Source: Azolla caroliniana (Eukaryota; Plantae; Polypodiophyta). Taken from it: 64,000 nucleotides of DNA. Every line of letters starts with the position of its first letter. Position 1 is the stretch's first letter. The stretch covers positions 2,170,001-2,234,000 of the forward strand of contig JBHGNT010000005.1 of NCBI GenBank assembly GCA_043228905.1, in the 5' to 3' direction. Below, in pieces: positions 1 to 42,759 of this stretch. Under the pieces are notes generated by a model. That model saw only the letters and a list, made by a program, of their open reading frames with translations, had not been told where the DNA came from and searched no databases. The position numbers were made by a program, and so were the translations under genes.

Positions 1-346
1 GCCGGAAGCTGAAGGCAGTTTGAGCAGATAACGGAGGAGAATACCGGGGGCAGTTCGAGGAGTACTGTTGCTCGAAGGGAATCCGGCTCGAATTTACCGT
101 GCCGAAGATGCCGGAACTAAACGGGTTGGCCGAGAGGATGAACCAGACCATAATGGAGAGGGTCTGGGGTATGCTCGGGCATGCAAAATTACCCAAGAAG
201 TTTTGGGTTGAGGCACTGTCGACGGCGACATATGTGATAAATAGATCACCCTCAGTACCCTTGGACGAAGACACGCCACAGAGAGTATGGACCGGTAAGG
301 AAGTGTCCTACCGGCATCTGAAGGTGTTCGGGTATCTCGTGTACGT
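1..346 (+). pseudogene. Copia integrase core fragment
   Basis: DNGGEY...PELNGLAERMNQTIMERV...LPKKFWVEALSTATYVINRSP...HLKVFG motifs typical of copia integrase. Confidence 0.93.
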
Positions 347-991
347 TGTCGAGGTATTCCTCGCGGATGCGTGGAATGAGGCGGGACCTCGGGGGTCCTG
401 TACCGAAGAGCAAGAGAGAAAGGAGAAGAGACCCACTACGTGCGAGAGTAGATTCATAGGGACACGGCCCTTCGACACAAAGACGCGAGTGGGATAGCGA
501 CACAGAGAGACATGAATGTATGTATGTATTAACAAAGACAAACAACAAAACACGAAGTTGGTTACAACCGAACAGGCCGGCGAACAGATGCCGATACCTG
601 TTCGTAAACGGACAGAAAGGAAGGAGTAGGTTGGAGGTGCTGCCGGAAGCACTCGGGCATTCCTCAGAGCAGCGCGAGCCTCCCGAACCCTGCACAGAAG
701 GAAGCTATGGAGTTTGCGAACCAAAAAGAGAGAGAGAGAAGCCTTCGCACACAAACCGACAGCACTTCGTCCTCGACTCTCCGCGATCCCCTTCCCCCTC
801 CTCGTCTCCCTCCTCTTATAGGCAAGGAAGGAGCCGTTTCCTATTAACTTCCTACCTACCGAATCTACCTACCTAGGATCTTCTATGTCCCTCATTCTCC
901 CTTATGTACAACGTAAGGCGTACGTGCATGAAGAGTCGGTTCCTATGCTCCAGCGCACCGATTCCGATCGTGGACGGTTTTCTTCACGACA
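347..991 (-). repeat. 3' LTR of gypsy A (645 bp)
   Basis: TGTCG...CGACA termini; near-identical to 19548-20194; G-rich PPT adjacent at 992-1008 (minus strand GGTTAGGTGGGGGCGGA). Confidence 0.95.
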
Positions 992-1064
992 TCCGCCCCC
1001 ACCTAACCGCGCATCCACCGGCATGCGCCAAATTGAGTTGGGACGGAGAAAACCGGTCCAACCT

Positions 1065-4000
1065 TTATTCCCCGCCCGTCAGTTCTTCTTCGGTTTCGGA
1101 TCGTTCGTCGTCCCGGTCCAGGTTATCCGGATCCGGCTCGTCGTCGTGACGCTTCTTGAACGCTTTGATCCGCTTCCCAGCTACCGGTATCGCCATTCTC
1201 GTGCCGTCGAGTTCCGCCAGATGGTACGTCCCGTTGTCGTTGGCGCTTTGTACCACATAAGGCCCGAACCACCTTCTTGCGAACTTCCCTGTCGCTCGGT
1301 GTTGGTTGTCGAGGCTGGTGTCGTAGACTAGCACCCAATCGCCTTCCTCGATCTTCTTCGATCGGAGCCGGTTCGTCTGGTCGAACCGGGCTTTGTTCCT
1401 CGTCCTACCCACCCGAAGCTTTTCCGCAGCCTGCTCCACGTCCTCCGGTCTTCGCTCGAGCTGTCGTATGCGCGCCGTCAACAGTTCCTCCCGGCTCATC
1501 TCGTCTCTCCAGTCCACGGTTGCCCATGAGGAGATCGTACGTTCCATCGGCATGATCGGCTTCTGCCCAAACATGAGCTCTGCCGGCATGAATCCGGTTA
1601 CCGAACTGTGCGTAGTTCGTTCAGCCCACAACGCGTAAGGCAGCAGCCGCGGCCAGTTCCCGACTTGACCTCCGCATGCCCGAACTAACGCCTTGACGAT
1701 CGGTCCGTGTCCGCGCTCCACCTTCCCATTCGCCTCCGGATTGTATGCAGTGGTGAGCGAGAGCTTGACTCCTAGCCGATCGAATAGCTCCTCGGCCTCT
1801 TCGGCGTCCAACTCCCCGCGATCAGCCACTATCTTCCCGATGCACCCGTACCGGCATATCACGTCCTCAATTAGGAACCGACATACGGCCGCGGTCGTTT
1901 TGTTTTGAAGGGCTCGGCCTTCTACCTGGTTCGTCAGATCTTCCCAAGCCAGGACCAGGTACCGCATCTGTCCTACTCCCATCGGCATCGTCACCAGATC
2001 TACCATCCATTTGAAGTGGATGGTCGGCGGGTACGTAGGGTGAAGCTCGTCCCGATGTTGGACTACGGAGTGCATTTGACAGCTCTCGCAAGTTGTCACG
2101 AACCGATGCACGTCCCGGTACAGTCCCGGCGACCAGTACTTCCCCTTTATCTTCTTGAACGTGGCCCACATTCCTGTTCTTCCTTCATCGCAACCACCCG
2201 GAGCGGGATGCCTTTCCTCTTCTTCGGGTTCTTCCATAAGTATCCGTCCCGAAGAAAGAATCGGTAAGCTTTCTTCCGGATCCGGCGTCATTGTCCTCAA
2301 AAATCCACCGATCTGGAGCCACTCGCCGTCGTACTTGCTCTCATCGAAGTCGTTAAGTGCCGGAGTGCTCGTCCCATCGGTCGTCACGTACGCCGCCTCG
2401 AAGAAGTCCACGCCGACTTCTTCGTCCTCCGAAACCATGCCGCCCTCGTCATCAAACCTCGCCCTCGAAAGCATGTCGGCCATGGCGTTGTCCTTTCCGG
2501 AAATGTGCCGTATTTCCGGGTCCAGGGACTTGATGTACGCTATCCACCTGAGCATCACCAGGTCCGGTGTCGCGCATCCGGAAACCATGCCGAGAATTGG
2601 CAGGAAATACGTCTCGATGATCACTTCCGTCCCGATCAGGTAGTCTTTGTCGGCCTTTACTGCCGAAACAATACCCCAGAGTTCGCGTTTAACCTGGGCA
2701 TACCCCCGTTGTCGCTCACTGAGGACCTTCGCGCCGAATCGGATCGGGAACCGAATGTCGTCCTCGTCTTCTTGGTTGACAACCCATCCGATCCCGGTCG
2801 GACTCGTATCCACTGTTATGTATACCGGGGTACCCTTCTTGTAGACAGCCTTCCGGAGCGCCGGTGCCGCCGCAAGAGCTTCCTTTAGCTTCCGGACCGA
2901 CTCCGTGTGCTCGTCTCGCCACTCGAATTTTCGCCCCTTTTTCAGCGACCCGTATAGCAGCTCCGCAACGTGGGCGTAATGCGGGATCCATATGTGGTAG
3001 AACGCGCATGCCCCCAGGAACCTCCGAACTTCCGTAACCGAGCTACAGTCGGTCTTCATCGCGGAGATGGCTTCTACTTTTTCCGGAGACGGCTTCCGGC
3101 TATACGATCCACACAGGTGTTCGACCACCAGGATTTCTGATTGCCCGAAGGCCGATTTCTCCCCGGAGAAGGTGAGCCTCGCATCCTCTAGCCTTTGTAG
3201 CACCTTCTCGCAGTCGTCGATGTGTGTTGCCACCAATCGCCGGCATCCGTCCGGCCCGAGTGTTGCGTCCTTCTCTTCCACTGGGCACCCCTTGATCGGG
3301 ATGTCGTCTAGAAATGGTATGGTGATGTCCGGGATGCAATCCCTCAGTACCTTGTTCATTGCATTCACCATGTGGGCCACCGAGTTGGTTCCTCCTTGTG
3401 GCAGGGTACACATTCGCACTAGGCCGAGGGGAGTTCGCATCGTCGTAATGTCTCTGCTCTCTACGGCTAGCTGGAATTGGTCGTACCCCGAGTACAGATC
3501 ACCGACCGAGTAAATCGACCTTCCGGCGAAGGCCTCCGCGAACTCGTCTATGGTCAATCCGATTCCTGCGTTCCGAATGGTCACTCTGTTGACCGGCTGC
3601 AGGTCCTGAATGAAGCGCAATGTTCCGTTTTTCTTTGGTACGGTAAACCATCGGTTCGAGTATGGCGCGCTCGACGGTTCGAGAATACCCATATCGACTT
3701 TCTGCCTCAGTAGCTCCATCAACTCCGGGATGTGAGCTCTTGGTACCGGAATCGGCTTGAGATTCCACGGTACATGCGGTACCGTGAATATCACCATCGG
3801 CTCCACGATTGTCGGGTCTACGCACCCAATCTCTTCCGGTGAGAATGCGAAGGCTTTCCCATGCCTTCCGAGCATTCTCCGAAACCGGTCTTCCTCCGCC
3901 GGCAGTAGGAACCCGCCCCCACCGATTTTGAGCTCCCGAACTGGGGTCCGACGCAACCCCTCTGATTCGGGACTCGCTGCCCTCCGGTAAGGGTGCCGCA

Positions 4001-4430
4001 ACTGGCCTTACCTTCCGGTCCACAGTCTTGTACTTCGTGCAAACTCGGGCCGTCCGATCCGACCCGAGCCCCCGACTGAAGTTCGCGATGACTTTACATC
4101 TCTTCGGAACATACCGGTATCGTCTGGTCTTCGTTAAGGTCTTCTCCGGCTACCTCCCTCAGCATTCCCAAGGTGTCATCAAAGGAGACCGCCTCCACGG
4201 CTCCGCTGATTTCCTCGTCCGGGGCGAGAACTCCGCACGCTTGAAGTCGCACTTCCGCCCTTGTCTTTTCTCGGCCAACGATGCCGACTATCATACACCC
4301 TCCGTTGTTGGAGAAGGAAAATTTCCTACCTATCGTACAGGGCTCCTTCGGTTTCGGTTCTATCGTACAGTCGTGGGGTCTTCCTCGAGTGTCCGGACTG
4401 TCTCGGCCCCACGCCTTGGCAACCCTCTCT
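1065..4430 (-). pseudogene. Gypsy A pol (RT-RNase H-integrase), with deletions and frameshifts relative to B
   Basis: 978-aa ORF 1065-4001 with FLDD RT, TVDTS RNase H, DLV...DRG...E integrase core and GPY motif. Lacks segments present in B near 3940 and 2160-2290. Confidence 0.93.
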
Positions 4431-5646: not shown

Positions 5647-5919
5647 GGGTCGAAGCATGCTACGGTGTACCAACTTTTGGCCAAAAATTTAGTACTAAAT
5701 CGAAGAAGAAAATAAACATTAAAAATTGTAAATAAGTTTCAAAAAACAAAAAACAAATTCATTACGTCACACTCGAATGCACAAAGATATTGTACGTCAC
5801 ACTCGAAATGTCACTAGGCCATATTTAATACATTAATTGTTGCCCCAGTCTCCTAGGTAGAGTTGTACGAAAGCACACCTGGAGAAGGTATCCATTGTGA
5901 CAGTTGGTCAGTCTCAGTA

Positions 5920-5994
5920 TCTCTCTCTCTCTCTCTCTCTCTCTGGTATGGGTAGTCGAACGTGTCAATTGGTATGTCTCTCTCTCTCACTCAC

Positions 5995-6027
<33 letters not shown>
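5920..6027. repeat. (CT)n microsatellites in the putative 5' region of the accessory gene
   Basis: Directly visible CT runs. Confidence 0.85.
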
Positions 6028-6030
<3 letters not shown>

Positions 6031-7033
6031 GTCTCGAAGTTGTCAGACAGACAGTGGCGGAAAGTTAAATAAAGACGACATATCTATTACAGGTCTATCT
6101 CTCTCTTTCTCTCTCTCACTCCACCTTCAAAGCTCTGTTTCTTTCTTTCTTTCTGTTTCTCTCTCTCACTCCACCTTCGATTCTCTGTTTCCCCGCGTAG
6201 CTGTGCTTGTGTTCCCCTCTGTGCCAGGTTCGATCTCTGAACGCAGAGATTTTTGTTTCCCCTGCTCGTTGTATGTGTTGTTGATTTTCCTTCCTTGTGT
6301 ATGCTCGTTTGTTTCCTCTGTCTATGCTCGTTTGTCTCCTCTGCAGCAGCCTCGTTTGTCGAAATCAACACGGTGTGGTACCTCTGCAAGTTGTACGACC
6401 TCCAGGTATTCTCTGTGTTGCATGCCCAACTGGTATGTTTTCTTTTTCTGAATGTTTCCTGTCTGTCTGTTTTTTATTTGCATGTGTATGGTCATTTTTA
6501 GGGTTTGATTATTCATAGTCTATGTGTTGCATGCCCAACTGGTATGTTTTTGTTTTCTCTGTGTTTCTCTGTGTTTCTTTTAAAAATGTATGACAATATT
6601 TTGATCGAGGTGGTTGTGTGTTAGACATGTTTGTACATGCAACGTAAATGGAGTTGGCTATGATGAGTTGCTATGTTTTCGTTTTGTTCTTGTTTCCTGT
6701 CCATCTGTTTTATTTTGTGTGAGTTTGACATGGATAAGTGTTTTTCCGACTATTTTGGGTTTTTGTGTGTTTGACATGGCTTGTACATGCGATGTGATGG
6801 AGTTGGCTATGATGATTTACAATGTTTTCGTTTTCTTTGACTTTCCTATCCGTCTGTTTTTATTGTCTGTGTGTTTGACATGGATGAGTTTTTTTCCGAC
6901 TATTTAGGGTTATTGTGTGTTTGACATGGTTTGTACATGCAATGTGATGATTTGCTATGTGTTGATGGTAATTGCTTGAGTTTTCTTCTAGTACATGCAT
7001 ATTCATTCCTTGAGAATTGTGTTGACTAGGACA

Positions 7034-10000
7034 ATGACGAGAAGGACACCCATAAAGAAGACATTGATGAAAGAGAAAGTGAAGACACCAGTGAAGGAAG
7101 GAAGAAGGACACCCATGAAAGAAAGCAAGAAGACACCCACAAGAGAAAGGGTGATGAATTCATCAACACAGAGAAAGAAGATGTACCACTCCATCAGTCG
7201 AGACACACCTCTTGGATGGAATTATTTCCTTCGAGTACGACCCGACGTGTATCCAGAGCTGAGAGAGTGGTTGTTAAAAACCTGGGGGTCAGCACATCCT
7301 GACACAAGGCGAGGATTCCACATAAGTGGTTTGAAGAGGGAATACATGAATTTATTGAAGACGAGATACGAACATGTTTATGATACAAATCAAATCACTA
7401 ACAATGAGGTGGGTACTGTTTTTGCACGTGCTTTTGCATGTGAAGTTCAAGGTGGCATTGACGTAAATTGGGAAGATTTTAATCGGCACCGGTCAGAACA
7501 TTACAAAGGGTCCTCCAGTACCAACACTGGCTTGAAGTCATCTGGAACCTCTCATGTGGATATTCTAGCTATAACACCTGTCCACCAAGTTCTAGAGGCA
7601 AAGGTACGGGCCACAATGACTGAAAAGCATGAACAGATGATGGCCGGTTGCATAGCTTCTATGAGCTCAAGAATACAAACACTACTTGCTGATTTGGAAG
7701 CAGTTAAATCAGCTGAAATACAGGCAGAAAAGAAATTTTCTTCAATAAAAACTACATATGAATGGATTGCATCGACAATCCAAAATTCAGAAAGTGAGGT
7801 GTTGAAAGAGGAGTTGAAGAAAGAGCTAAACAATATGGGCACTCAATTAGGTTCACAGATGAGAGACCTTGATACTTGCAGGAATGCACATGAAGAAATA
7901 GATAATAAGTTGTCAGCCTTAAAGTTGCATTCTGAGAACCTTGCATGCTTGATGCAGGATTTAAAACAAAATGGTTTTGATACTTTGTGTCCATCTGTAA
8001 TTGAGCACCCAAGTGGTATAGAAAGTACCATTATTAGTATAGCTATATCACGGTATTGGCTTTAAAAGTTATTTATTTCTACTTCTCTGGTATAAATAAG
8101 TGAGCAGCTAATATATTATAACTTGTGTTTGCAATCTTCCAGGTGTATATTTTGTGGCCTCAGATTCAAGCTGGAGGCTATGGATGTTGTGATTACACCA
8201 TGCTTGCACACATATCATGTGCTATGTGCTAAGTATCATTTTGAGAAAGAGAATACATGTATGGACTGTAAAACTACAATTGCGGCTGAGTGGTACTATG
8301 CTTGGGGTTTAAAAGTACACCCGTACGGTATGTGGCTCTACTATTCTATTGTTTGTATTATATGATGTCAATTAACATTTGGACTAGAACTAGTGTATGC
8401 CACAATTCATACTTCAAATTTAGTGTAATCTCTAACAACTATTATGTGGAACCCTAATTATGTGGGTTAGTATTGGCAGTACTCTTAATATATAATTGGT
8501 ATGTGTAGTTGAAGGGATATTTTCCACAATTAGTAGTACTAAAAGGGAACCAGGTACAACATCATCCAATCTATATTGCAACTTGCCTAGTATTAGTTTA
8601 GTAAACACTATACTTATAGTACACTGTTGACTGTTAAGATTGTTTGTGTAACATGGGAATTAGTACTAGTAATGTAATTTGGGAACAAGGTGTATAGTAA
8701 ATTGCTGAATAATAGTACAATTATTGTAATTTGGAAATGAGGTGTGTCAAACACATATCACGTTTAGTACTAATACTGTTCAAGATTAATACTGTTGGTG
8801 TAATTAGTACAAGTTATGTAACTAGGTGTGTAGAAGACATATCATGTTTAGTATTACTTGTGTGCAAAATACCAATCTACATTTGTTGGATTAGTACTTA
8901 GTAAGTACTACATGGTTCATGATTAGTACTAGTTCTATACTTTGTGAACTAAGTTACTAGTACATTGCTCATGATTAATACTAGTTTTGTAATTTGGGAA
9001 CTGAGTAGTACTTTGTTCCTTATTAGTACTAGTTTTGTACCTTATTAGTAATAGATCAGTAATCTAGAAAATAAGTGAGTAGTACATTTTGTAGGATTAG
9101 TACTAATTGTGTAATTTGACTAAGTCAGTGGTACATTGTTGAGTAGTATATTGTGCATGATTAGTACTACTTGTGTAAATTGGGAACTAAGTGAGCATTA
9201 CATTGTTCGGGATTAGTACTCCTTGTGTAATTTGCTAACTAAGTGAGTAGTATATTGTGCATGATTAGTACTACTTGTGTAAATTGGGAACTAAGTGAGC
9301 ATTACATTGTTCGGGATTAGTACTCCTTGTGTAATTTGCTAACTAAGTGAGTAGTATATTGTGCATGATTAGGACTACTTGTGTAAATTGGGAACTAAGT
9401 GCGCAGTACATTGTTCGGGATTAGTACTCCTTGTGTAATTTGCTAACTAAGTGAGTAGTATATTGTGCATGATTAGTACTACTTGTGTAAATTGGGAACT
9501 AAGTGAGCAGTACATTGTTCGGGATTAGTACTCCTTGTGTAATTTGCTAACTAAGTGAGTAGTATATTGTGCATGATTAGTACTACTTGTGTAAATTGGG
9601 AACTAAGTGAGCAGTACATTGTTCGGGATTAGTACTCCTTGTGTAATTTGCTAACTAAGTGAGTAGTATATTGTGCATGATTAGTACTACTTGTGTAAAT
9701 TGGGAACTAAGTGAGCAGTACATTGTTCGGGATTAGTACTCCTTGTGTAATTTGCTAACTAAGTGAGTAGTATATTGTGCATGATTAGTACTACTTGTGT
9801 AAATTGGGAACTAAGTGAGCATTACGTTGTTCGGGATTAGTACTCCTTGTGTAATTTGCTAACTAAGTGAGTAGTATATTGTGCATGATTAGTACTACTT
9901 GTGTAAATTGGGAACTAAGTGAGCATTACGTTGTTCGGGATTAGTACTCCTTGTGTAATTTGGTAACTAAGTGAGTAGTATATTGTGCATGATTAGTACT

Positions 10001-12215
10001 ACTTGTGTAAATTGGGAACTAAGTGAGCAGTACATTGTTCGGGATTAGTACTAGTTCCGTGATTTAGGAAATAAGTGAGTAGTACATTGTTCAAGATTAG
10101 TACTACTTATTAATTTGACTAAGTCAGTGGTACATTTTTCGGGATTAGTACTTGTGTAATTTGGTAACTAAGTGAGTAGTATATTGTGCATGATTAGTAC
10201 TACTTGTGTATATTGTGCATGATTAGTACTAATCGTGTAAATTGGGAACTAAGTGAGCAGTACAGTGTTCCTTATTAGTACTAGTTCAGTAATTTAGGAA
10301 CTATGTGAGTAGTACATTGTTCATGATTGGTACATTGTGTAAAATGGGAAGCAGCTCTTGTGACCTACATTATATATTTTAGATGATGGTACTAACATTC
10401 AAGGTTTTTTTGTTTCTTGCAATGAATGTTGTAGTGTCAAGCAACTCCACGCCAAGGAAGGTAATGGAACAACCAGCCCCTATGCCTAAACCCTCAATAT
10501 CTGCTACACATTCCAAGGTTCAGGGACCATCACTACCAATAACCTATGATTTTTATGATGAGGATGAATGTATGAGAAGGGCCATTGGAGCAGTGGAACA
10601 TATGCTTCTACAAACAAATTCCCCAAGCTCCGGTCAACATCAAGAAATAGAGCCCACTAAGAAGAGAAATGCAGTTTCTTTACAAATAGAGCCCAGTAAG
10701 AAGAGAAATGCTGCAAGAATGTTGTATGGAAACGGCAAGAAAGGCAAAGTTGAATGCAATGGTGAGTCATATAAGTTCTCACCTGTCTGGAGCATTGTCA
10801 ACCTAATCCATTGTCTAATACCATGTACTTGTGTTACTAGCTGATGATGAAATGATATTTGGTGACGGAGATACGAGTCCAAAACCTGATCATGAAGACG
10901 AATTTATCACACTCCCAGGTACACATCAAAAGCCAGACTTTGAAAACAATGATTAAGCTCATAACAACCCTATTTTTGTTGTTATTATAGATCATAACAA
11001 CACTGTTGAGCACCTAGATGTTGTGGAGAAGATGACCGAGCCCACCACTTGCAATGGGGTATCTACGGCTGTACAGTATGACGATGTAACATTAGGTAAA
11101 AATGTGGCCCTAAACCCTATGTTCATTGTTTGCAAACTTTTGAGTATGTGAGTTCATACCAATATTCTTTGGAATCCCATTAATTAGGTTTACAAGAGTA
11201 GTTTGATTCCCAACTGCAATCAAATGAATCGGGAACTTCATGGAGCACAAGTGCAGAATCAGATTCCCATCAGAGTCAGAATCAAATTAACCTTTGCAAG
11301 GAGGCAGACTCTGGAAGCACATCTTCCACACATGAGGATTGTGAGAAAAACGAAGCATTCATATGTGAAGAGCAGTTGGCATGTACAAACAACACTATGT
11401 CTAAAGAAGCCTATGAGTGTGGAAAGAATATGGCAAGTACTGAAGAGAAGATTGAAGCCCATGAAGAGTGTGGAAATAATATGGCAAGTACTGAAGAGAA
11501 GACTGATTGTACTGATAATGTGGCAAGTGCTGAAGAGAAGACTGATTGTACTGATAATGTGCTAGTACTATCTAAAGATTCCCATGAGGATCATGGAAAG
11601 AACATTGCTAGTAATGAAGAGGAGCTTGATTGTACTGAGAATGTGCTAGTAGTGTCTTGTGAAGCCCATGAGGATCGTGGAAAGAACATCGCTTTCCCTG
11701 AAGATAAGCCTGATTGTACAGAATCCCATGAGGAGTGTAGAGCGAACAACGTTACTAATGAAGGTGGGCCTGATTGTACTCAGAGCGAACAACATTGTCT
11801 TAAGAATGAGGTGACATCCATCGTACAAGAGGAGTTGACCATGACTACTGCCACGGTCCACATACAGGAGTCTAATAAGAACGAGTGTATAGGCATCGGT
11901 GATGATGATAGGGCAATAAAGATCGCTAGGAGTACAAGCATTCAGGAGATGAGTGATAATTTGTCTATCGACAACACCTTTGTGGATTTGTGTACAAGCA
12001 TTGCAGTTGCAGAAAACATAGTTGCTCTCTCAAGCTTGCCACCAGTACAAGGTGGCCGCGCATCCACGCCTGTCTCTGATGCCTCTGATGATGAAGTGCC
12101 ACTTAGTCAGCTCATACCTAAAGGCTTTAAGATAAAGAAGAATGTAAAATCAGAAAAATCTGGCACCAACAACAAGCGCATTACAAGATCGGCCAAGTTA
12201 CCCTCTAGTGCCTGA
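7034..12215 (+). pseudogene. Multi-exon accessory gene of the Sola2-like element: basic N-terminus, coiled coil, RING-H2 finger, acidic/Cys-rich repetitive C-terminus
   Basis: Inferred exons 7034-8052, 8143-8327, 8509-8553, 10435-10761, 10841-10918, 10991-11095, 11188-12215 joined by GT-AG introns in frame. RING-H2 CIFC-x15-CLHTYHVLC-x10-CMDC. One in-frame TAG near 11199-11201. Confidence 0.7.
9140..10050. repeat. 104-bp higher-order tandem repeat (two related 52-bp monomers, about 8.5 copies) in an intron; degenerate copies extend about 8600-10340
   Basis: AAGTGAGTAGTATATT recurs at 9241 and 9345; AAGTGAGC monomer at 9293; each monomer contains ATTAGTACT. Confidence 0.93.
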
Positions 12216-12344
12216 TTGTCTTTCGATTGTACTTGAACTTTAGTTGTTAGTGATGTCTGAAATTGAACTATTTGGATACCAAAATACTGTTTCAATTGCC
12301 AATGTAAAAAATCCAGTTCATGAATCTGAAATAGTTATACCAGT

Positions 12345-13310: not shown

Positions 13311-13322
13311 ATAGGGTGACTT

Positions 13323-17367: not shown

Positions 17368-17422
17368 TCGGTCACTAGATTTATCCACAAAAATTAAGTG
17401 TCTTGCGAAAGTAGTTAATGTT

Positions 17423-27596: not shown

Positions 27597-27667
27597 AGAC
27601 GGGCCGGTTTTCTCCGTCCCAACTCTCCTGGCGCATACCGGAGGATGCGCGGTTAGGTGGGGGCGGA

Positions 27668-28450: not shown

Positions 28451-28454
28451 CCGT

Positions 28455-30072: not shown

Positions 30073-30105
<33 letters not shown>

Positions 30106-30376
30106 CTTCTTCTCCCCCTTCGTGTTCACTTAGGGTTGGCTTCAGCTCGTCTCCTGCGCAAGACCCCGCTCGGCGCGACAAGCCCGTGAGCTCCCGACCT
30201 ACGGCTTGGCAGCCGACGACTACTGTAACCTACCTTGGACCGGCTCGAAGCCGGGAATGTATTCTTCCTTTTATATATATACATTTGCGTCTGCCTGTGT
30301 ATATTGGTGTCTCTGTTGGTGTCAGGTGCTTCCCCTTTCCTGCGTTTCCTGTACATAAGGGCATGAGTCGGGTCGG

Positions 30377-30416
<40 letters not shown>

Positions 30417-33019
30417 TGAGTCGGTGTCAAGCACGCGCTCCCTCTCTTTCTCCCTCTCCCTTCGGTTGCTTCCGGTGTCCTTCTGGGATGCCCCGGAAAC
30501 GGTGAAGTACAACTTCCTACGCTCCGTCACCCCCTAGTCCAAGACCCCCATGGTCCCGCCTTTCTCCACGCACACGCGTAACAACGCGACATATTTGGTG
30601 AACCCGACGTGAAAGGTGGCAAGGGAGGATGGAGTCGGAAGACGACGACCTCGCGGTGATGGTGGCTGAAGTGGTGTTGGAGTCGGCACGAGTGGTGATG
30701 AGGCGAGAAGCAGCGCAACAAGCGGTCGAGTGAGTGGTCGAAAGAGTTGGCCGTTTCAACGGGGACAAAGTCCCATCTTACTTGGAAGCCTACAATGCGG
30801 AAATGGAGGACGTGGCGTAGACGAGTCGTTGAGGCTGGAGTTCTTCTGTCGGGTCGTAGTTGTTCGGATGCGTGTGGAAGTAAAGGAGCTTTGTGAGGCT
30901 CATAGTTCGTGGGAGGCCTTCGAAGAGGCGCTCCTGAAGGCATACGAAGGACGGCGGAAGAGCCGGGGACGACACGACTTTGACCAGTGGGTAGCATCGG
31001 CAAAGACCCACCGTGGCGCGACCAAGGCGTTCTGAGAGTTCGAGCGACGGCTTGCTCGGCTCCCGGAGCGGGAACAAGGTTTGGTGGGGGCGGACAAGGT
31101 CCTATTGTTCGTCAGGTCGATGGACTGAGCGGAACGGGAGGCCATCGGGATTGAGCTCGAAGACGATGATGGAGTGAATGGGCTTACGGAGGACTGGTCG
31201 AAGGTCGGAAGGGTGTGCCAACGGCTAGACAATGAGCGAGCCAAGAAGGCTAAGAGGAAGGTACGCGACGGTGTGCCATCACAGCGGGAAGAGGCCAAAC
31301 GGCAAAGAGAGTCGGCAAGGGTCTGCGTTGGGGCCAGGATTGCAGAGGCGTACGCAACTCTCGAGGCGATGCTCGAGGAAGAGGAAAGACCGAGGCCGCA
31401 AGCAGAGACTGAGGAGACGGACTTGCCCCACGCGATGGCGGAAGATCGGTACCACGGTACCACGGGAGAGGGTGCGGAACAAAACGCCCTCTCGACTTGC
31501 GGAGATAGAACGGCCAAGGACGAGGCCGAGATACAGATCACGGAACCGGATAGTTGGGACCAGCGGTTTCGGGCGTGTCAGCCCGAAACCCCGGAAATCG
31601 GAGAAGCAAGCCCAGGCGGGGCTTGCGCGATCGGTAAGAAGACGACCGCCGACCACAAAGAGTCGGTGGCTACGGACAAGGGCATAAAACGGACGGGCGA
31701 TTCTTTGTGTCTTCCCACACTTGCTCCTGAGATGATGGCAGTCGGGCCCGAGTGCCCACGTGAGTCCCAAGCGGAGGAAGGCGGTGGCGAAAGACCAAGA
31801 ATCACCGGCGAGACGATACGGGGAAGGAACAGACGAAAGCCCTCGGACCCGATTCCGGAGAACTCGGCATTCCGGAGACCGAGGAGATGTATGGTGGTAC
31901 CGAGGAGTCCTGGCATGATGCCAGCGAAGATGGATGGGAAACGGCCTGTGAGGAGGCCGAGGACGGACGCGGCACGAGGAGATCGGCATTCCAATGCGGA
32001 TGGAGCAGAATCCGGTCGTGGATCATTCGATCAGGGCCTGATTCGATACGAAAGAGGATGCGGGACGAGCCGCCCTCTTTTACATGGGGAGAAAGACCGA
32101 CCAGGTGAAGGTCGGGAATTGGAAAGGAAGGTGATCAAAGGTTCAGAACAAGTCTGGCAAGGTCGGCATCAGAGCCGAAACTCCGGACATTGGAGAATCA
32201 TGCTCAGGCAGGGCTTGATTGATCACAGAGCGGATGCTATCCACCGACACCACTAAAAGGGGCGGTGGCCTGGATGAGTTGCAGAAAGACGTTGCGAAAT
32301 CAGTTACGCCACATCTTATCCGGAGACTTCGGTTGTTCGGCCGACGGGGCAACGTCAGACCAAAAGAGATGGACGACGGAGGCGGGAATGCAGCAAGGAG
32401 AGCAAAGACAAGTTCGGGAGGAGTACAAAGGACGAAGAGGAGAACGAAGACCGGCCCTACAGAGATCCTTACACCGATCCGGCTGTCGGCCCGAGTGCCG
32501 ACGTGAGTCCTATAGGAGAGATCGGTGGCGACAGGAGAACGGGACCCGGCAATCCGGAGAAGGACGAACAGACCCGGACGAGAACCGGGCGGAACGGACT
32601 CCCGGATGACCATTCCGGGAGGGAGGAAGAAATCAGGCCTACGAAGAGGCCGAGGAGACGGTACGTCGGGACCACAGGAGAGGGTGCGGAGTAAACCGCC
32701 CTCTCGGCATGCGGAAAAGGACGACCCGAGACAGGGTCAGGAAGACAAATCGGAGGCCCAAGGAGGATCCTTCACACCGGTTCTACAGAAACCGACGGTC
32801 CGCCCGAGAGCCGGCGGTCGGCCTGAAGTGACGAACGGTGGCAGCGAGGGGACGAAGGCAAAGGGCTATGGATGGGCGGTCTACGAAGATCCTCACACCG
32901 ATCCGGTGGTCGGCCCGAGAGCCGGCGTGAGTCCTATAGAAAGGACGGTGGCGGCAGGGGAACGTGACCAACAGAAGAGGATGGCGAAGGCAGAGCGGAG
33001 CAGCTATGACCTTACACGC

Positions 33020-33700
33020 TGTCGTGAAGATTTTCGTCCACAAGCGGAAACCCGAGCAACGAGAGCCAAAGAGCGATGTGCAACGTTGCACACGTACATA
33101 ATGTATTTGTAATAGTAATAAAGGTATAAAGGTGATGTGGTTGTACGCACATCCACGCGAGAGAGAGAGAGAGAGAGGTACTATGCGGTACATAGGTACC
33201 TAGTTGTTTGTGAGGAGGTGGGAGTTAAGGGGCCATCAATCTCACCCTCCCCCAAATCAAGGCAAATATCCCCTTTGAATGAAAGGGGATATTTTAGTCT
33301 CACCTTTGTAAGCAGTCTTCCGTCCTTGTGCTATAAAAGGAGAGAGAAGGCACCATTGTGGGGGTTGCCTATTTTGTGTGAGTAAGGTATACCACTTAGT
33401 CGAGGGTTCTACTTCTTCCCATTTCGTTTTAGGGTTAGGGTTTCGGTTAGGGTTTTCTTCTTGGGTTTTCCTTTAGGGTTTTTCATATAGTCGTTTGGTG
33501 CGGCCATGGCGGCCACCATTTGTTGTAATCATTCATTTCTTAATAGAACTTCTTGTTGAGTATCTTGATTGCACCTTCTTCTTCTAACATAATGTCATAT
33601 TCGTTCTCTTCTCCTCTTGAGCTAATCTTTCTCCTCCACTCCCTAGTCCAAGACCCCCGTGGTCCCGCCCTTCTACACGCACGCGCGTAACAACGCGACA
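33020..33700 (+). mobile_element. Solo LTR D (681 bp)
   Basis: TGTCGTG...CGCGACA with perfect TSD ACGC. Confidence 0.92.
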
Positions 33701-34481
33701 ACGCACTGATTCTAGAGACTCCGGCAGCCGACGACAAGAGGAGGCGTGAGACCTAGAGTAAGGGACGGTGGCGGCGGCAAGGCGGGCAACCGAAGCCTGA
33801 AGGGGAGGTCCCACGAAGACACAAACACCGATCCGGCGGTCGGCCCAAGTGCCGGCGTCAGTCCTACAGGTGAGATCGGTGGTGGAAGGAGAACGTGATC
33901 GGACAACAGGAGGCAACGAACGGCAAGGAGGTATGAGGCCGGCGAGGCGGCTACGAACCAAATCGGACCTTCCGGCAAGGTCTTGGCATAACGAAGTCCG
34001 GTCCTACGGGATCCCCACACCGAACCAGAGACTCCGGCAGTTCGGCCAACGTGGCAACATGAGACCGAGAGAGAAGGTTGGTGGCAGCGGGAAACGGGAC
34101 CCGGCAACACGAAGACGGAAACCGGCCACGCAGAAGACACGAGGAGAGTCGTGAAGGACTCCGACAAAAGACACCCGGATCTCAGCAAGCGACGAAACAA
34201 AGACAGGTCCTATGGGACCCTCACACCGATCCGAAGACTCCGGCAGTTCGGCCAACGTGGCAACGTGAGACCTAGGGAGAAGGACGGTGGCGGCAGGGAA
34301 CGGAACCCAATGACACGAGGTAGCGGATCGGGAGTCGGTAAGACGGGGCGGACGAAGTGCGAAACCCTCACCGGCCGGTTACGGTTTCGGAAGTAGCTGG
34401 TAGGGGCAAACACAAGGAGGTGTGTCGGGCCGGAAAGGCACACCTGGGACGGAATAAGAGTCTCGTCAGTGGCCATCGCGG

Positions 34482-35131
34482 TGTCGGGTTGCTACGCGCG
34501 TGCGTGGAGAACGAGGCGGGACCACCGGGGTCTTGAACCAAAGAGCAGGTGATAGAAGGGGAAAGAGAAAGAGAGAGACGCTCGGTTACGTATGAGCAAA
34601 GAAACTCAGGGACACGGCCCTGTCAACGCAGAAGACACGAATGGACACAAAGACAGAGAGACACGAATGTTTGTATATTAATGAATGACAAATAAACAAC
34701 AGAACACGCGAGCTGTTACAACCGAACAGGCCGGCGAACAGATGTCGATGCCTGCTCGTCTGCGCACGAAAGGGGATAGGATGGAGGTGCTGCCGGAAGC
34801 ACACAGGCGTTCCTCGAAGCAGCGCGAGCCTCCCGAAAACCTGCAGAGAAGAGCGATGGAGAACGAACAGAGGAGAAGCGTTCGGTTTCGGTCCGACAGC
34901 ACTTCGTCCTCCTCAATAATATATTCCCCCCTATCTCCCCGCGTCTCCCTCTCTTTTATAGCTTCAAGAGGGGAGCCGTTTCCCTCATTAACTTCCTACC
35001 TACCGAATCTAACTACCTAGGATATACCTTTGTACCCCATTCTCTATTATATACATTAAAGGGCGCGCACGCGTGAAGAGCCGGTTCACGCTATGCACCG
35101 ATTACGCTAAGGGACGGTTTTCTTCACAACA
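34482..35131 (-). mobile_element. Solo LTR E (650 bp), related to the A LTR
   Basis: Shares CCGAACAGGCCGGCGAACAGATG and terminal blocks with A; perfect TSD GCGG. Confidence 0.92.
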
Positions 35132-36099
35132 GCGGGCCGGATCAAAGCGTGACTACGGGACGGTGTTCGGCGAAGACGGTGCCGAACAAAGGAAGCGGAA
35201 GACGGCACAAGGGAGGTGCCGGGAACGAGGTGCCGGGAACGAGGTGACGGGTGCCTAGTGGACTGCACATGGTCGGAGTCAGGGGATGGCAAGAGAGGCC
35301 GGAGGAGGATCCTCCACACTTGCTTCGTAGATCTCGGTAGCTCCGTCGAAGTAGCGAAGACTAACACGGCAAGCCCAGGGTGACAAGTTGGTGGGGGCGA
35401 GGGGACGATGGCAAGCGGAAGACTCAGGACCAGTTGCAGCAGCACGAAGATGGGAAGGGCCAAGCGGGCTACTACGGGGTGTTCCTCAGGTGCGGAGGAC
35501 ACCAGTATGCGGGTGAGCGGCAATGCGCGATCTGGCCGGGAAACGGGCCGACAAGGCGTGCAATGAACCGGAGTACGACACAGCTAGTGCCAAACAACGG
35601 ACGAGGGTATGTGGCACACGGAGGTGCCGGAGCAGAAAGGCGAGCACGGAGATGGGTTGCGCGGTCAGGGAGGTAAGCGCGAAGGAAGAACCAAAGCTGA
35701 TGGATCAAACCGGCAGCGAGCCGGGGTGCGGATTACGGAAGACCGGTTTTTCACCGGCCGAAATCTCTCACCCTTCACCGGGTTTGGCACGTACCGGTGG
35801 ACGTGCGGTTAGGTTGGGGCGGATGTCGTGAAGAATTTCGGCCAGAGGCGGAAACCGGGAAACATTGGCTACATCGGCGGGGTGCGGCATGTGTGTTCAC
35901 CCTTGTACATTTAGTGTGAATAACGAGGGCGCCTTTATGGCACCGAAGAGTAGTCAAGTCGGGACAGACGATCCCATGTAAGTCGGGATTTATCCCACAT
36001 TGTAACGCATCCCTCTCCTTGTTCTAAAAAAGGAAGGGAGCGCCCTTTGAGAAAGGGGTTGCCCATTTTGCGTTAGAGGGTATACCGCTAGATTTAGGG

Positions 36100-36131
<32 letters not shown>

Positions 36132-36657
36132 CCCCCTTTGTGTTCGCTTAGGGTTGGCTTCAGCTCGTCTCCTGCGCAAGACCCCGCTCGGCGCAACAAG
36201 CCCGTGAGCTCCCGACCTGCGGCTTGGCAGCCGACGACTACTGTTACCTACCTTGGATCGGCTCGAAGCCGGGAATGTATTCTTCCTTTTATATATATAC
36301 ATTTGCGTCTGTCTGTGTATATTGGTGTCTCTGTTGGTGTCGGGTGCTTCCCCTTTCCTGCGTTTCCTGTACATAAGGGCATGAGTCGGGTCGGCCTGTG
36401 TGTGTGTGTGTGTGCGTGTGCGTGTGTGTGCGTGTGCGTGAGTCGGTGTCAACCGTGCGCTCCCTCTCTTTCTCCCTCTCCCTTCGGTTGCTTCCGGTGT
36501 CCTTCTGGGATGCCCCGGAAACGGTGAAGTGCGACTTCCTATGCTCCATCACCCCCTAGTCCAAGACCCCCGTGGTCCTGCCTTTCTCCACGCACGCGCG
36601 TAACAACGCGACAATGTTATACTCGGTTTCCGCCTAGGGACGGTTTTCTCCACGACA

Positions 36658-37365
36658 GCGCATTCGGGGAAGGATAATCGCACACGGGAAGAGCCTACGG
36701 AAGGCGAGCGCGGAGCGGAGAGAGTCGACACGCGGAGGTGTTCGGGACGCGGAGACGATCGAACCAACGGAGGGACATGCACGGCACGCAAGGCGCGGAA
36801 TCTGGCGTACAACCAAAGTGGCCCGGCGTGCGATCGGAGAACATACGCGGCGAACAGCGGAGGAGTGACTGGATCGGCAACGGTGTTCAGGAGGACCAAT
36901 CAGGGAAGAAGGCACGAACACCGGATATGGGGGCCTGACAATGAGCCGGCAAGACCGATCGGGGCCGGTAAGGAGCTGGCGAGACGATCGGGTGTTGGTA
37001 AGCCGGAGGACCCGGTTGATCACTGTCACCAAAATCTGTCACCTTTCTTGGCACATACCGGTGGATGTGCGGTTTGGTGGGGGTGGATGTCGTGAAGATT
37101 TCTGGCTATAGTGTGAAACCGGGGCAAAATGGGCAAGTCGGTGTGTGCAACATGTGCACATTTATAGTAGGAAAACGGTGTATAGAATAAGGGGGGAGTA
37201 TTGATCCCACATTGTAACGTTCCTCCCTCCTTGGGCTATAAAAGGAAGGGAGGGGTCTCTAGTATGGGGTTGCCCATTTTGAGTTAGGAGGGTATACCGT
37301 TAGATTTAGGGTTAGGCAGTTCCTCTTATTCTTGTTTCATTCTAGGGTTTCATCTTGGTAGTTTT

Positions 37366-37396
<31 letters not shown>

Positions 37397-37820
37397 GTCG
37401 TCGTCGTGTGGGTTGAGAGTTCGTGTATGTTTAGGGTTTGCTTCTGGTTGGTCTCCTCTGCAAGACCCCGCTCGGCGCGACGAGCCCGAGAGCTCCCCGA
37501 TCGGCGGCTTGGCAACAGACTGCCGTTGTAACCTACCCTACCTTGGTCCAGCTCGAAGCCGGGGTTGTATCTTTTCCCTTGTAATATACATACTCATATA
37601 TGTTTGTGTATATTGGCGTATTTGGTGGTGTCGGAAGCATAGCCCTTGTTTCTTGTGCATAAGAGTCGGTGTTGCGCGCTTGCTCTCTCTCTCTCTCTCT
37701 CTCTCGAGTTCGATTGCCTCTAGGACGTGTCCAGAGTCGGTTTCTCGGCATCCCTTCCTCCCTCGTCCGAGACCCCCATGGTCCCACCCCTTCTACACGC
37801 ACACGCGTAATAACGCGATA
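36658..37820 (+). mobile_element. 3' end of gypsy-group element F (internal 3' region, PPT, LTR 37088-37820)
   Basis: PPT GGTTTGGTGGGGGTGGA then TGTCGTGAAG; LTR similar to C; right flank CCGA. Confidence 0.85.
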
Positions 37821-37997
37821 CCGAGTTGTGAAGTTGAGGGATTACCTACGCCAATCCACAATGGGATTGTGCGTCACTAACCAGGACAACCTTAGAATGA
37901 CAGGATATTGAGGAGAAGAAATTAGATTGAACGCGATCGTTTCATGATGAGATCCCATAATGAGCTCTAGTGGAATCGTTTCTTCAATGATAGCACT

Positions 37998-38636: not shown

Positions 38637-39385
38637 ACACCCGATAGGAGCGGTCATTCGTCAATAACCTCAACCAGAATAGGCTTTGTTTTGACGACCT
38701 TAGGGATGGAGTGTGTATGGCCAAAGAGCACGTCCATAAAACATGTCGTGGCTCCAGAATCAAGTAGGGTGGTGGTGTATATCACCCGAGTCCCTATCTG
38801 CAAGCTCATCGGTACCATAAAACCATTTCGAGATGGCGCCTCATGAGTAGAGGTGATCATTTGACTGATGGCGCCTAGTTGCATAACTCTTACTGCACCT
38901 GGACCCTCCCATTTCCCAATATGCGACTACCTTTCATCGCGCACGAGGTAGCAAGATGTCCAGACATGGCACAGTAGAAACCCAAGTTGTCTCGTCAATC
39001 AGTGTCACACTTTACCCACCTCTATCGGCGTAGGTGAATCAATGGTTGGGACTTGGTTCAGGACATATGGCGGGGTTGGAGATTGAGAGGAAGAAGGCCA
39101 AAAAAAAGACAACCCATGCCTTATTTCCCAGGTCGTACACTCCTCTTGACGGAGCTTGAAGAGGCGGTTATCACAACGTACCACCTGTGCTATCGCTTCG
39201 TTCAACAAGGTCAACTCTAGAAAATTTAGTAATAAATTTTTTACATCACCTGTCAATCCCCGACAGAATTGATCACATAGGGCTTGATCGCCCCACCCCA
39301 CATCGCAGGCAAGTTGGCAGAATTCGGAGGCGTAGGTGGAGGTTGCATGATTACTTTGCTGAAGGGAATAGATCTTAGTGAGCAT

Positions 39386-40918
39386 TGTCGTGAAGATCCG
39401 TCACTACATGTGGATCGTGAGGCGGAACCGTCAGGGTTCTAGACTGCAAGGATTCGAAGTTTGCACAAGCTTTAGCAAGAAAGTATTTAAGATAGATTGA
39501 AAGAGAGAGAGAGCTTGAGATAAGATAGAATGCTTGACTTTAGATTGAGAGACAAGATTAATACAACACAAAAATGGAATAATGAATTTTCTTCCTCTTA
39601 ATTTCTTAATTAATACATAACTTCCCTTTTGTCTTTTTCAACCACTCTTTTATAGATGCCTTCATGCATATGTCGCATGTGAGGCTACAAGACATGCATA
39701 CAATGCATGGAATGCATGTTTGCCATTTGGTGCTCATGCATTACATATGATGCATGATAACCATCTCACTCAATCAAGCTATAATATGAGAATTTACATG
39801 AAAAAGTATAATGATAGAAGAAATATTTTTAAGCATATGACTTAGCTTAGTGGTAAGTCTATTGCCTTCTATCTTGGAGGTGCAAGGTTCAAGTTTGGTT
39901 TATATCCCTTTTATAGCACAAAATACTATGGCTTTTAGACCAAATATCTTTAAAACACCATGCATCGCGATCAACCGACCCGACTTATTTGCATCCATTT
40001 GGTCTGGCCCAGTTGTTCGCATCCCAAGGTCGTCGAATGCTAGTAACCGGGTTTGCCGACACTGGTCGGTCGCCAGTTGCCGGTTGTCGGTTCCGTCACT
40101 AGCTAGTCACCAGTCGCCAAATGTCGTTGGTCGGTCGTCGGTTGCATCCGTTCGGTCTGGTCTGGTTTGGTTCACATCCCAAGGTTGTCAATCGTCGCAT
40201 CCTAAGCCAGTTCGGTCCGCATCTCGAGGTCGTCGGATGCCAGTAACCGGGTTTGCGGACATTGGTCGATCACCGGTTGTCGGTTGTCGGTTCCGTCGCC
40301 AAATGCATGTTTTGTCGCCGGTCCACGCATCCCGAGGTCGCCGGATGCCAGTAACCGGGTTTGCCGACATTGGTCGGTCACCGGTTGCCAGTTCTGTCGC
40401 CAGTTGCCGATTCGGTCTGCATCCCGAGGTCGCCGGATGCCAATAATCGGGTTTGCCGACACTGGTCGGTCGCGAAATGCCGGTTCCGTCGCCGCTTGGT
40501 CGTCGTCTCGCCGTCTCCATCCAGAACAAATGAACTTGGATACATCCATTCATCAAGTCATTCAACTCATCCTTCCTATTCTCCACACATAGAGATGAAC
40601 CAAATAGCTTTTGCTTTACCTTATATATGGTGAGATCCTTATTTGTCATGTCTATGTGGGATATGTTAGAATTTTTTTATTTTTCTCTTTTTCTTTGCAA
40701 ACTTCATACCCACATAACTTGACACTTAGAGGTCTGTTTGTTATGTAGCAAAGTGCATTCAAAAGCTCTTCAAGACCTCCATCTTTTTGTACCAAGATAT
40801 TAAACTTATTTAAAGTAGTATCTTCACTATTATTGTTTTATATTTCGTGAGAAGAACCACACTCGATTTCGTATGTTCCTCACAAGTTTCACACTATCAC
40901 CGAAAAATCTTCACGACA
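39386..40918 (-). mobile_element. Long solo LTR G (1533 bp) with internal tandem repeats at about 40020-40490
   Basis: 12-bp terminal inverted repeat TGTCGTGAAGAT; U3 start resembles F; flanks GCAT/ACGT; interrupts the Tcn1-type gag. Confidence 0.8.
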
Positions 40919-42759
40919 ACGTAGCTCGACATCAGTCCATCTCCCCAAACTTAGCTTCAAACTCCATGAGAAAGGTTGCGAAAATTTCCAAAAGTGGCGA
41001 TGTCGTTTCCACCAAGGGAGTGAACCACGCTTGTGTTGGTCCCGTCAACAATGAACCCAAGAGACCGGCCTAGTGGAACCCTATGGCGTAACGACGGGGC
41101 TGTAGGCGGATGATGAGGTGGATCTAATTAAGGAAGTCGCGTAGTCGTGCATGCGTTCCATCAAACTTATCGGGAAGGCTAATCTTGGGTTCATAGTAGG
41201 GTTCTTGGGATGGTGGTGGTGGGTTGAGTGTGGTGGATGGGGTAACCAAGGATGTGGTAGATTGAAGCTCAAGTAAAGATTGACGAAGGGTAGCGTTCTC
41301 GGCTTGGAGTTGTTCCAAAGCTACGAGTATTTGGGGTGGGCTATCGGATGGATCAGACATGGCTTTCGATGTGTGGTTAGTGAAGAGGGGGAGAGAGCAA
41401 AGAATTGAAGGAGAACAAACTGTTAAGGACAAAAGAATCAGAGCTACAAGGATACTACAAGGATGCGATCGACAAGCCTAAACGCTCTACAAAGACACGA
41501 TTGACAAGCTAAGGGCAAGTATCATCAACTAGTGTTGTTCACCTTGAATTCATTCAAGGTGAACTCAAATATTTATACTAAGCGGCATGCATGCTTGTTG
41601 CATGCATTTGATACACTAGAGCATGTATGTACGCATGCATGTGGCAGTGTGAAATTATAATACAGGAGCAATTATGCTCATGGTGCTAACTTAAAGTTAC
41701 AAGCAACAATTGTGCATATGAGTGTATATTGAACATGTTGGTTAACACATAACATTCGATTATAACACAAGAGGTTACTAGTTCAGATCTTGACGTGACC
41801 GTCGTCATGTAAAAGGGGATTTTGCCAACCCCAACTTTGGGGTTTCCTACTGGTCCCAATGCTTTCTACTTTGCGTTCACAAAGAGCCACTTTCCTCCAT
41901 GTAGCTTTTTCACACTAATTAATTGAGATATATATGTTTTTTGGTTAACAATTATCAACACCTTGTATGTTTCTATTACAATGTAAAAGGCCAAGAAAGT
42001 AATTCTCACAAACTATAGGATGTATATAGGCCAAAAAATGATACAAGGTAAAAGGTTGCCAAAATCAAATTTTTTGTGTCCATGAATTTTTCTATAGGTT
42101 CAAAAACAGTTATTCAATTGCTTCATGACTCTTCCTTCCAACAGTGGTATGAAAGCCAAGATTGTGTGTAATCGAGTCGGCCAAAAGATTGTAAAATCCA
42201 AACCGGAATGTGACATCATTGTCTACAGTTATGAGAGGTAATCCTTACTACAATCTTACTACTACAGTCTGCAATAATTCTTCATCCAAATTTTGCAGAT
42301 CTAATAGAGGTGTTTCTATCGGTCTTAAAACTTCTAGTAAATACATATATACCCGTCCTTAGATTACAAAGAAATGAGTGTTCATCTATGTGCACTAGAT
42401 TGTGACATAGAAGTTGTATTTTAGATGCATGCCCACTTCACGAGAGATTGTGAAATGGAAGTTGTGTTGTCATGATGTGGTGAGTAAGGTAGAACAAGGT
42501 GCTAAAAAGAGGGGACGAGACAATAACCAGATAAATGTGTATATATATATAACAATAATACAACAATAAAAAGTAGATAGCCAAATGGCAAGACTATAGA
42601 TTGTGTAAAACAAAGTGTGAAGTTAAAAGATGTTGAATGGGACTATCCTTTTATGGTTTTCATGGAAAGGGGGTTGGTGAAAATTAAATGTGGTTGGTGG
42701 CACCTCTCTCTCTATAAAAAAAGGTAGAGGGCTCATTTTGGGGTTGGACATTTTTTGGC

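What the first reader, a model, noticed from the sequence alone, without database searches (positions are those of the whole stretch)
343..40922. Gypsy group appears to integrate specifically at CpG: all 4-bp target sites are N-CG-N
Seen: four exact TSD pairs are ACGT (A), CCGT (B), ACGC (D) and GCGG (E). One-sided flanks are GCGC (H, 36658) and CCGA (F, 37821). Two old pairs, ACAT/ATGT (C) and GCAT/ACGT (G), are most simply explained by decay of ACGT and GCGT. All eight insertions, from several LTR subfamilies, are centred on CG. Established: most plant LTR elements make 5-bp TSDs with little sequence preference (solo LTR I here has 5 bp); sequence-specific gypsy targeting is known for example from Drosophila ZAM (CGCG). 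Inference: this chromodomain-less integrase reads CpG, possibly methyl-CpG, which would steer it into CpG-rich TEs and away from AT-rich DNA and would explain the nested island.
Basis: partly seen in the sequence, partly recalled or inferred. Interest (0 to 1): 0.82.

Follow-up and report, generated by a model that had tools for sequence, protein, structure and literature searches.

The report
CpG-targeting Phygy-type retrotransposon in fern
A group of jumping genes in what is likely a fern inserts almost only at CG dinucleotides, a preference already published for the moss Phygy group it closely resembles; its integrase likely reads the CG sequence itself, and whether methylation matters is untested.

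Summary
In the window, 4 of 6 two-sided insertions have exact 4-bp CG-centred duplications; the other two fit CG decay. Of 96 further unique flanks from metagenome contigs, 80 are CG-centred, 14 are TG or CA and 2 are other, against 4.2% CG background. TG/CA occurs at the same rate as CpG decay in the LTR (15% vs 12%, p=0.49). The motif is V-CG-B, best ACGT.

It is not new. Neumann et al. 2019 report 4-bp NCGN duplications and a tRNA-Trp primer site for the Physcomitrella Phygy clade. These elements share the TSD, lack chromodomain and extra RNase H, and have a matching primer site (isotype recalled). A tree against Phygy references could not be run.

Added here: a likely fern host, the finer motif, and candidate integrase residues. 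Methyl-CpG reading has no direct support. Steering is moderate: sequence alone predicts 3.8-fold more targets in the island, and 32 of 95 flanks are under 40% GC. The scan earlier filed nested elements elsewhere in this genome near Phygy (e1-10618240).

The parts
343..346 (.). Element A left TSD, ACGT, inside a copia integrase-region ORF
347..991 (-). Element A 3' LTR (96.6% to its 5' LTR); PPT follows at 992
1065..4007 (-). Element A pol piece (RT, RH, integrase), decayed
5647..18605 (.). 13-kb TIR DNA transposon interrupting A; not a member of the group
19548..20194 (-). Element A 5' LTR; PBS at 19526-19543 after a 4-nt spacer
20195..20198 (.). Element A right TSD, ACGT
21160..21163 (.). Element B left TSD, CCGT, inside copia RNase H ORF
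21164..21946 (+). Element B 5' LTR (783 bp, 99.7% to its 3' LTR)
21951..21968 (+). Element B PBS, 4 nt after the LTR; complement is a CCA-ending plant small RNA; tRNA-Trp isotype recalled
21937..24117 (+). Element B gag-protease ORF (stop to stop), DUF4100 hit
24078..27596 (+). Element B pol ORF, overlapping gag in another frame: RT, RH, integrase; no aRH, chromodomain or MBD hit
26235..27593 (+). Element B integrase: HHCC, D143-D202-E237, DRGEL motif (E205 at 26847), CTD loop Q375/H376/R380/K381 (27357-27377)
27656..27667 (+). Element B polypurine tract abutting the 3' LTR
27668..28450 (+). Element B 3' LTR
28451..28454 (.). Element B right TSD, CCGT
29793..36617 (+). Element C (LTRs 29797-30591 and 35824-36613, 96.7%), flanks ACAT / ATGT, inserted in the LTR of H; decayed interior
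33016..33704 (+). Solo LTR D (33020-33700), TSD ACGC / ACGC, inside C
34478..35135 (-). Solo LTR E (34482-35131), TSD GCGG / GCGG, inside C
36614..36661 (-). 5' tip of LTR H (ends 36657) with one-sided flank GCGC, inside F's interior
37088..37824 (+). Element F 3' LTR (37088-37820, mutated end) with one-sided flank CCGA
39382..40922 (-). Solo LTR G (39386-40918, 1533 bp, diverged subfamily), flanks GCAT / ACGT

Best explanation
These non-chromovirus Ty3/gypsy retrotransposons, likely of the Phygy clade and in a likely fern host, insert with a 4-bp duplication at V-CG-B sites (best ACGT), and their integrase likely selects the site by reading the CG sequence itself, whether or not it is methylated. 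Shown: TSD length, CG centre, loss of T at position 1 and A at position 4, later CG-to-TG/CA decay at the ordinary LTR rate. Inferred: the intasome kinks the target at the central pyrimidine-purine step, as 4-bp retroviral intasomes do; avoidance of T at the joining base is the general intasome rule; extra base contacts narrow the choice from any YR step to CG. The conserved CTD loop (Q375, H376, R380, K381) and the invariant Glu at the PFV Ala188 position are candidates for those contacts. Each young copy is CpG-rich (B: 103 CG/kb against 17 in the AT-rich arm), so it adds targets for later copies, which would be enough to build the nested island.
For: 80 of 96 unique flanks CG, 14 one transition away, T at position 1 in 0 of 96, A at position 4 in 2 of 96, little preference beyond the TSD. 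Decay 14/94 at targets vs 41/335 at three LTR CpG sites, Fisher p=0.49. In four DNA runs, contig ends that read on through ACG after the LTR are the largest listed class in three (88, 81, 60) and 9 vs 11 in the fourth (47 rows not shown). PMC6317226: Phygy 4 bp (100%) NCGN, tRNA-Trp PBS 81%, no extra domain. PMC4422553: 4-bp viruses favour central YR and disfavour T/A at TSD positions 0/+3. B integrase matches PFV and Ty3 integrases by sequence and predicted fold. Glu at the Ala188-aligned position in 45 of 45 aligned rows, K381 in 45, Q375 and H376 in 39. Targets occur in AT-rich and CpG-poor DNA (32 of 95 flanks under 40% GC, 26 under 25 CG/kb), one about 70 bp after the stop of a host Alba ORF (L002). 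ZAM integrase binds its CG-rich target directly (PMC2527525) in a fly that lacks DNA methylation (PMC6673714).
Against: No methylation data and no biochemistry. No Phygy reference sequence could be read, so clade membership rests on features. B is 7287 bp, below the Phygy range 7656-9968. The Ala188-position residue contacts bases outside the TSD in retroviruses, so it need not read the CG. The match of the CTD loop to PFV's target-contacting loop is recalled, not aligned here. In 7 contigs with a target flank on both sides of one LTR, 0 of 7 pairs match; two other contigs show PPT-LTR-PBS joins, so these are likely assembly chimeras, but they give no TSD pair outside the window. The search pattern needs intact CpGs in the LTR end, so it favours young copies; short-read contigs favour unique flanks.
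Confidence: 0.68

Rival explanations
1. The integrase prefers methylated CpG: the methyl groups are read at the centre of the target, steering insertions into silenced repeats.
For: All sites are CG-centred; CG methylation is widespread in a fern genome (PMC9477723); all placed insertions in the window's island lie in other elements, and 26 of 95 outside flanks are LTR-element DNA. Precedent for methyl-guided insertion by another route: MBD-bearing Copia (PMC6673714).
Against: No MBD, chromodomain or other reader hit; only a short acidic tail after the CTD in most relatives. No strand bias in decay (7 TG, 7 CA on the right flank), which single-strand deamination of a methylated target during gap repair would give. 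Sequence alone accounts for the window's clustering (p=0.22). One site lies beside a host ORF. None of this excludes it, since most CpGs in such a genome may be methylated.
Confidence: 0.14
2. Shape readout only: the intasome needs a very sharp central kink and CG is the step that fits best; no base-specific contacts are needed.
For: V-YR-B is the general pattern of 4-bp retroviral integrases (PMC4422553).
Against: Those viruses show only about 63% enrichment of YR. Here TA, a flexible YR step at 6.1% of background, is at the centre in 1 of 96, and TG/CA are no commoner than decay predicts.
Confidence: 0.12
3. A host CpG- or methyl-CpG-binding protein tethers the integrase and fixes the cut position.
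For: Ty3, the nearest solved retrotransposon integrase, is placed by a host factor; the acidic tail could bind a partner.
Against: The preference is confined to the four duplicated bases and is symmetric, as expected for contacts inside the intasome; a bound reader would cover the site (inference). The tail is poorly conserved and low-confidence.
Confidence: 0.05
4. Artefact of CpG-rich surroundings or of misplaced LTR ends.
For: The island has 87 CG/kb; two of eight window cases need decay to fit.
Against: 83% CG against 4.2% background in 96 outside flanks; 4-bp removal alone restores two host reading frames.
Confidence: 0.01

Closest known systems
Phygy clade, non-chromovirus Ty3/gypsy of Physcomitrella patens (Neumann et al. 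2019, PMC6317226; passages and supplementary file 5 read; files 1 and 3 too large to read)
   Same: 4-bp TSD with NCGN; tRNA-Trp-type PBS; no chromodomain, aRH or extra ORF; coding region fills the interior; nests into other LTR elements (PMC6911290, passages).
   Different: Host here is likely a fern, while the paper calls Phygy species-specific (later listed in the liverwort Apopellia, PMC12885004, passages). B is 7.3 kb against 7.7-10.0 kb. The motif is resolved here to V-CG-B. No tree against Phygy references.
TatI (same table)
   Same: 4-bp TSD, tRNA-Trp PBS in 75%
   Different: TatI carries an archaeal RNase H in 100%; none here. No NCGN preference reported.
4-bp-TSD retroviral intasomes: PFV, MoMLV, PERV, XMRV (Serrao et al. 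2015, PMC4422553; abstract, sections 6, 14 and first part of 12 read)
   Same: 4-bp stagger, central YR step, T and A disfavoured at the TSD edges; B integrase resembles PFV integrase in sequence and predicted fold.
   Different: Their bias is weak and covers all YR steps; here it is nearly absolute for CG. They have a small neutral residue at the Ala188/Ser119 position; this group has an invariant Glu.
Drosophila ZAM (PMC2527525, passages)
   Same: Gypsy integrase with a CG-rich sequence target that it binds directly
   Different: Target CGCGCg plus a second site nearby; the cited CGCG duplication is GC-centred; errantivirus in a host without CpG methylation.
CopiaMBD of arthropods (PMC6673714, abstract and opening read)
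   Same: LTR element proposed to aim at CpG-dense methylated DNA
   Different: Uses a captured MBD domain and gives regional bias; no such domain here, and the preference is at the cut site.

Membership tests
Ty3/gypsy LTR retrotransposon | TG...CA LTRs, PBS, PPT, domain order RT-RH-INT | tested here: met
Phygy | 4-bp TSD | tested here: met
   4 exact pairs; frame test; definition
Phygy | NCGN target | tested here: met
   80 of 96 CG, 14 one transition away
Phygy | tRNA-Trp PBS | tested here: inconclusive
   Same PBS in A, B, C and 19 of 120 loci; its complement is a CCA-ending plant small RNA mapped to gypsy (PMC5846777); the Trp isotype is recalled, no call names it; no tRNA gene in the window
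Phygy | No chromodomain, no aRH, no extra ORF | tested here: met
   No such Pfam hit at E<=0.01; about 50 residues between RH end and integrase start; none in precomputed domains of 120 listed relatives
Phygy | Length 7656-9968 bp (descriptive, not defining) | tested here: not met
   B is 7287 bp
Phygy | RT-RH-INT phylogeny groups with P. patens Phygy references | not testable with these tools
   Reference FASTA too large to read; no P. patens-named hit; quick tree of 36 rows places A and B among Riccia sorocarpa and unnamed relatives but holds no Phygy reference
TatI | Archaeal RNase H domain | tested here: not met
Chromovirus | C-terminal chromodomain | tested here: not met
Methyl-CpG-targeted element (CopiaMBD-like) | MBD or other methyl-DNA reader domain | tested here: not met
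Methyl-CpG-targeted element | Preference for methylated over unmethylated targets | not testable with these tools
   needs bisulfite data of empty sites or strand-transfer assay

The most novel reading that the evidence does not exclude
The Phygy-type integrase is itself a methyl-CpG reader: its intasome cuts around a methylated CG with no MBD or chromodomain, using a clade-specific Glu and CTD loop, so that a lineage spread over mosses, liverworts and ferns aims at DNA the host has already silenced.
Probability: 0.14. Interest if true: 0.8.

Novelty: new member of a known kind. Interest (0 to 1): 0.33.

Why it matters
The CG preference is in print, but only as one sentence and a table cell: a search for 'NCGN' with 'retrotransposon' gave 2 papers, one relevant, and none of the 18 papers holding 'Phygy' has ferns or its mechanism in title or abstract start (listings only for most). 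Near-absolute dinucleotide specificity is unusual for an LTR integrase. Element B is young and has open gag and pol frames, so it is a ready substrate for asking how an intasome reads CpG and whether methylation helps, hinders or is ignored. The likely fern host widens the clade's range.

Tried and rejected
No whole genome is held, so the genome-wide logo was replaced by 120 metagenome loci from about 130 estimated. Laying contigs on the whole B LTR gave no usable flank table; one joined contig showed LTR end to LTR start with a short spacer. TSD pairs from single metagenome contigs: 0 of 7 match, set aside as likely chimeras. Integration-coupled deamination as a sign of methylated targets: C's ACAT/ATGT fits it, but the 96 flanks show 7 TG and 7 CA, so rejected. 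Self-targeting of old TSDs: only 1 of 96 flanks is followed directly by another LTR start (L039). The copia RT search gave angiosperm names at 82-87% and was uninformative for the host. Atlas searches gave generic gypsy clusters. Cluster look-up of 10 relatives gave no organism names. P. patens RLG2 could not be tied to Phygy: the supplement shows 400 bases only. The tree is the quick version, the careful search did not finish. A Pfam scan of the 45-row alignment was not obtained. No aragorn or paper call named the PBS isotype. Earlier-finding searches by words and sequence returned nothing on CpG targeting.
Full report
Verdict. The CG-centred 4-bp target is real and strong, but it is the published signature of the Phygy clade. 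The methyl-CpG idea is neither supported nor excluded.

Anatomy. Self-alignment and reading of the window show a nest. F's interior holds LTR H. H holds element C and a copia element. The copia holds A and B, C holds solo LTRs D and E, and A is split by a 13-kb DNA transposon. G lies apart. B is young and whole: 7287 bp, LTRs 783 bp and 99.7% identical, overlapping gag and pol frames, RT-RH-INT, DUF4100 in gag, no chromodomain, aRH or MBD hit. A, B and C share one PBS 4 nt after the LTR and a G-rich PPT.

Window check. Four of six two-sided insertions have exact 4-bp duplications (ACGT, CCGT, ACGC, GCGG), none matching at 3, 5 or 6 bp. C has ACAT/ATGT; 17 of 26 differences between its LTRs are CpG transitions, so decay is plausible. 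G has GCAT/ACGT and is weaker. F's CCGA is a rare class and its end is mutated. Taking out A or B with one 4-bp copy restores the copia reading frame; 3, 5 or 6 bp do not. The 5-bp 'solo LTR I' was not found.

Outside test. No genome is held. A pattern for the LTR 3' end found 120 loci in metagenome contigs. Nineteen are followed by the PBS and five duplicate another flank, leaving 96. The centre is CG in 80, TG in 7, CA in 7, other in 2, against 4.2% CG in the flanks (p 4e-93). Position 1 is A 65, C 21, G 10, T 0; position 4 is T 52, G 23, C 19, A 2; beyond that there is little preference. The TG/CA share (14 of 94) equals decay at three LTR CpGs (41 of 335; p=0.49), so nearly all targets were probably CG at insertion. 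Contigs of four DNA runs laid on D's end mostly read on through ACG in three runs, and about evenly in the fourth (contig counts, 47 rows hidden). Against: 0 of 7 contigs with both flanks of one LTR give a matching pair; PPT-LTR-PBS joins in two others suggest chimeric assembly. The pattern favours young copies and the contigs favour unique flanks.

Host. One locus is 98% identical over 642 bp to the end of the window's DNA transposon (L023), so these contigs come from the same or a close species. An Alba ORF beside another insertion has ferns as best named hits (Adiantum 89%, Ceratopteris 83%, angiosperms about 72%). Named pol relatives are from the liverwort Riccia sorocarpa, up to 68% identity; a quick tree places A and B among them and unnamed rows.

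What is known. Neumann et al. 2019 (PMC6317226) write that Phygy elements prefer NCGN, the one exception among plant LTR lineages, and tabulate 186 elements, 100% 4-bp, tRNA-Trp PBS 81%, no extra domain. TatI shares the 4-bp TSD and Trp PBS but has aRH, absent here. PMC6911290 reports Phygy nesting into Tcn1 and PMC12885004 lists Phygy in a liverwort. The PBS complement is a CCA-ending plant small RNA (PMC5846777); its Trp isotype is recalled. The defining tree test could not be run because the reference file is too large to read, so membership is likely, not shown. B is about 370 bp under the Phygy size range.

Mechanism. B's integrase matches PFV and Ty3 integrases by sequence and predicted fold (pLDDT 74). 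Retroviruses with 4-bp duplications favour a central YR step and avoid T and A at the edges, because of a sharp kink and a clash with the thymine methyl (PMC4422553). That explains V and B. It does not explain the centre: TA is 6.1% of background but 1 of 96 centres. So extra base contacts are inferred. Candidates are Glu205, invariant in 45 of 45 rows where retroviruses have a small neutral residue, and the conserved CTD loop. In retroviruses the Ala188 position touches bases outside the TSD, so the loop is the better candidate; its equivalence to PFV's target loop is recalled.

Methylation and steering. No reader domain was found and decay shows no strand bias. A fern genome is CG-methylated in most features (PMC9477723), so sequence data cannot separate the two models. 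Weighted by the observed site preferences, the island has 12.8 targets per kb and the AT-rich arm 3.4. With that model, no insertion in the AT-rich arm among eight has p=0.22. Outside, 26 of 95 flanks are LTR-element DNA by a limited search, 13 of them the same group, while 32 are under 40% GC. Sequence preference plus the CpG richness of young copies is enough for the nest; AT-rich DNA is not avoided outright.

Earlier findings. One note from this genome also placed nested elements near Phygy in a likely fern (e1-10618240). I had reached both points before seeing it. Searches for CpG targeting returned no matching note.

Scores. Observation confirmed. Novelty: new member of a known kind. Interest 0.33; the methyl-reader case has probability 0.14 and would deserve 0.8.

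Noticed in passing
window:5647-18605: 13-kb AT-rich DNA transposon inside A's gag, with about 26-bp terminal inverted repeats. Ends read either as GGG...CCC with 4-bp TSD CGCA or GG...CC with 6-bp TSD CCGCAG. Transposase exons on the minus strand (13323-17430) look Sola2-like (recalled; no Pfam hit). It also carries plus-strand ORFs of unknown kind and 52-bp and 123-bp tandem arrays.
   Followed up: partly
window:21947-21950, 30592-30595; 19 loci among L001-L120: The PBS starts 4 nt after the LTR's CA (TATT 14, TCTT 3, one of 3 nt, one of 5 nt), while the PPT abuts the 3' LTR. The usual spacer is about 2 nt (recalled), so end processing may be asymmetric.
   Followed up: partly
L039:1112 (minus), L073:2714: Elements sit tail-to-head (L039) or head-to-head (L073) separated by a single ACGT, as if a new copy used an older copy's TSD as its target. 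Rare: 1 of 96 right flanks.
   Followed up: partly
window:1-342, 20199-21163, 28455-29630: The host copia is Tnt1/Tork-like, 82-87% identical in RT to angiosperm elements although the host is likely a fern; it lacks the stretch between integrase C-terminus and RT.
   Followed up: no
L002:1021-1403: An insertion about 70 bp after the stop of an Alba ORF whose last 104 codons are uninterrupted; L071 and L056 have DUF26 and DUF247 ORFs near insertions.
   Followed up: partly
window:21951-21968: The PBS complement equals the small RNA annotated as miR894 in plants (PMC5846777), likely a tRNA 3' fragment that could silence these elements.
   Followed up: no
window:18000-38000: Young elements here have CpG observed/expected near 1.0-1.2 against 0.3-0.6 in most AT-rich DNA: this group is not CpG-depleted.
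   Followed up: no
window:53831-54784 (minus): 317-codon open frame with no Pfam hit in the AT-rich arm.
   Followed up: no
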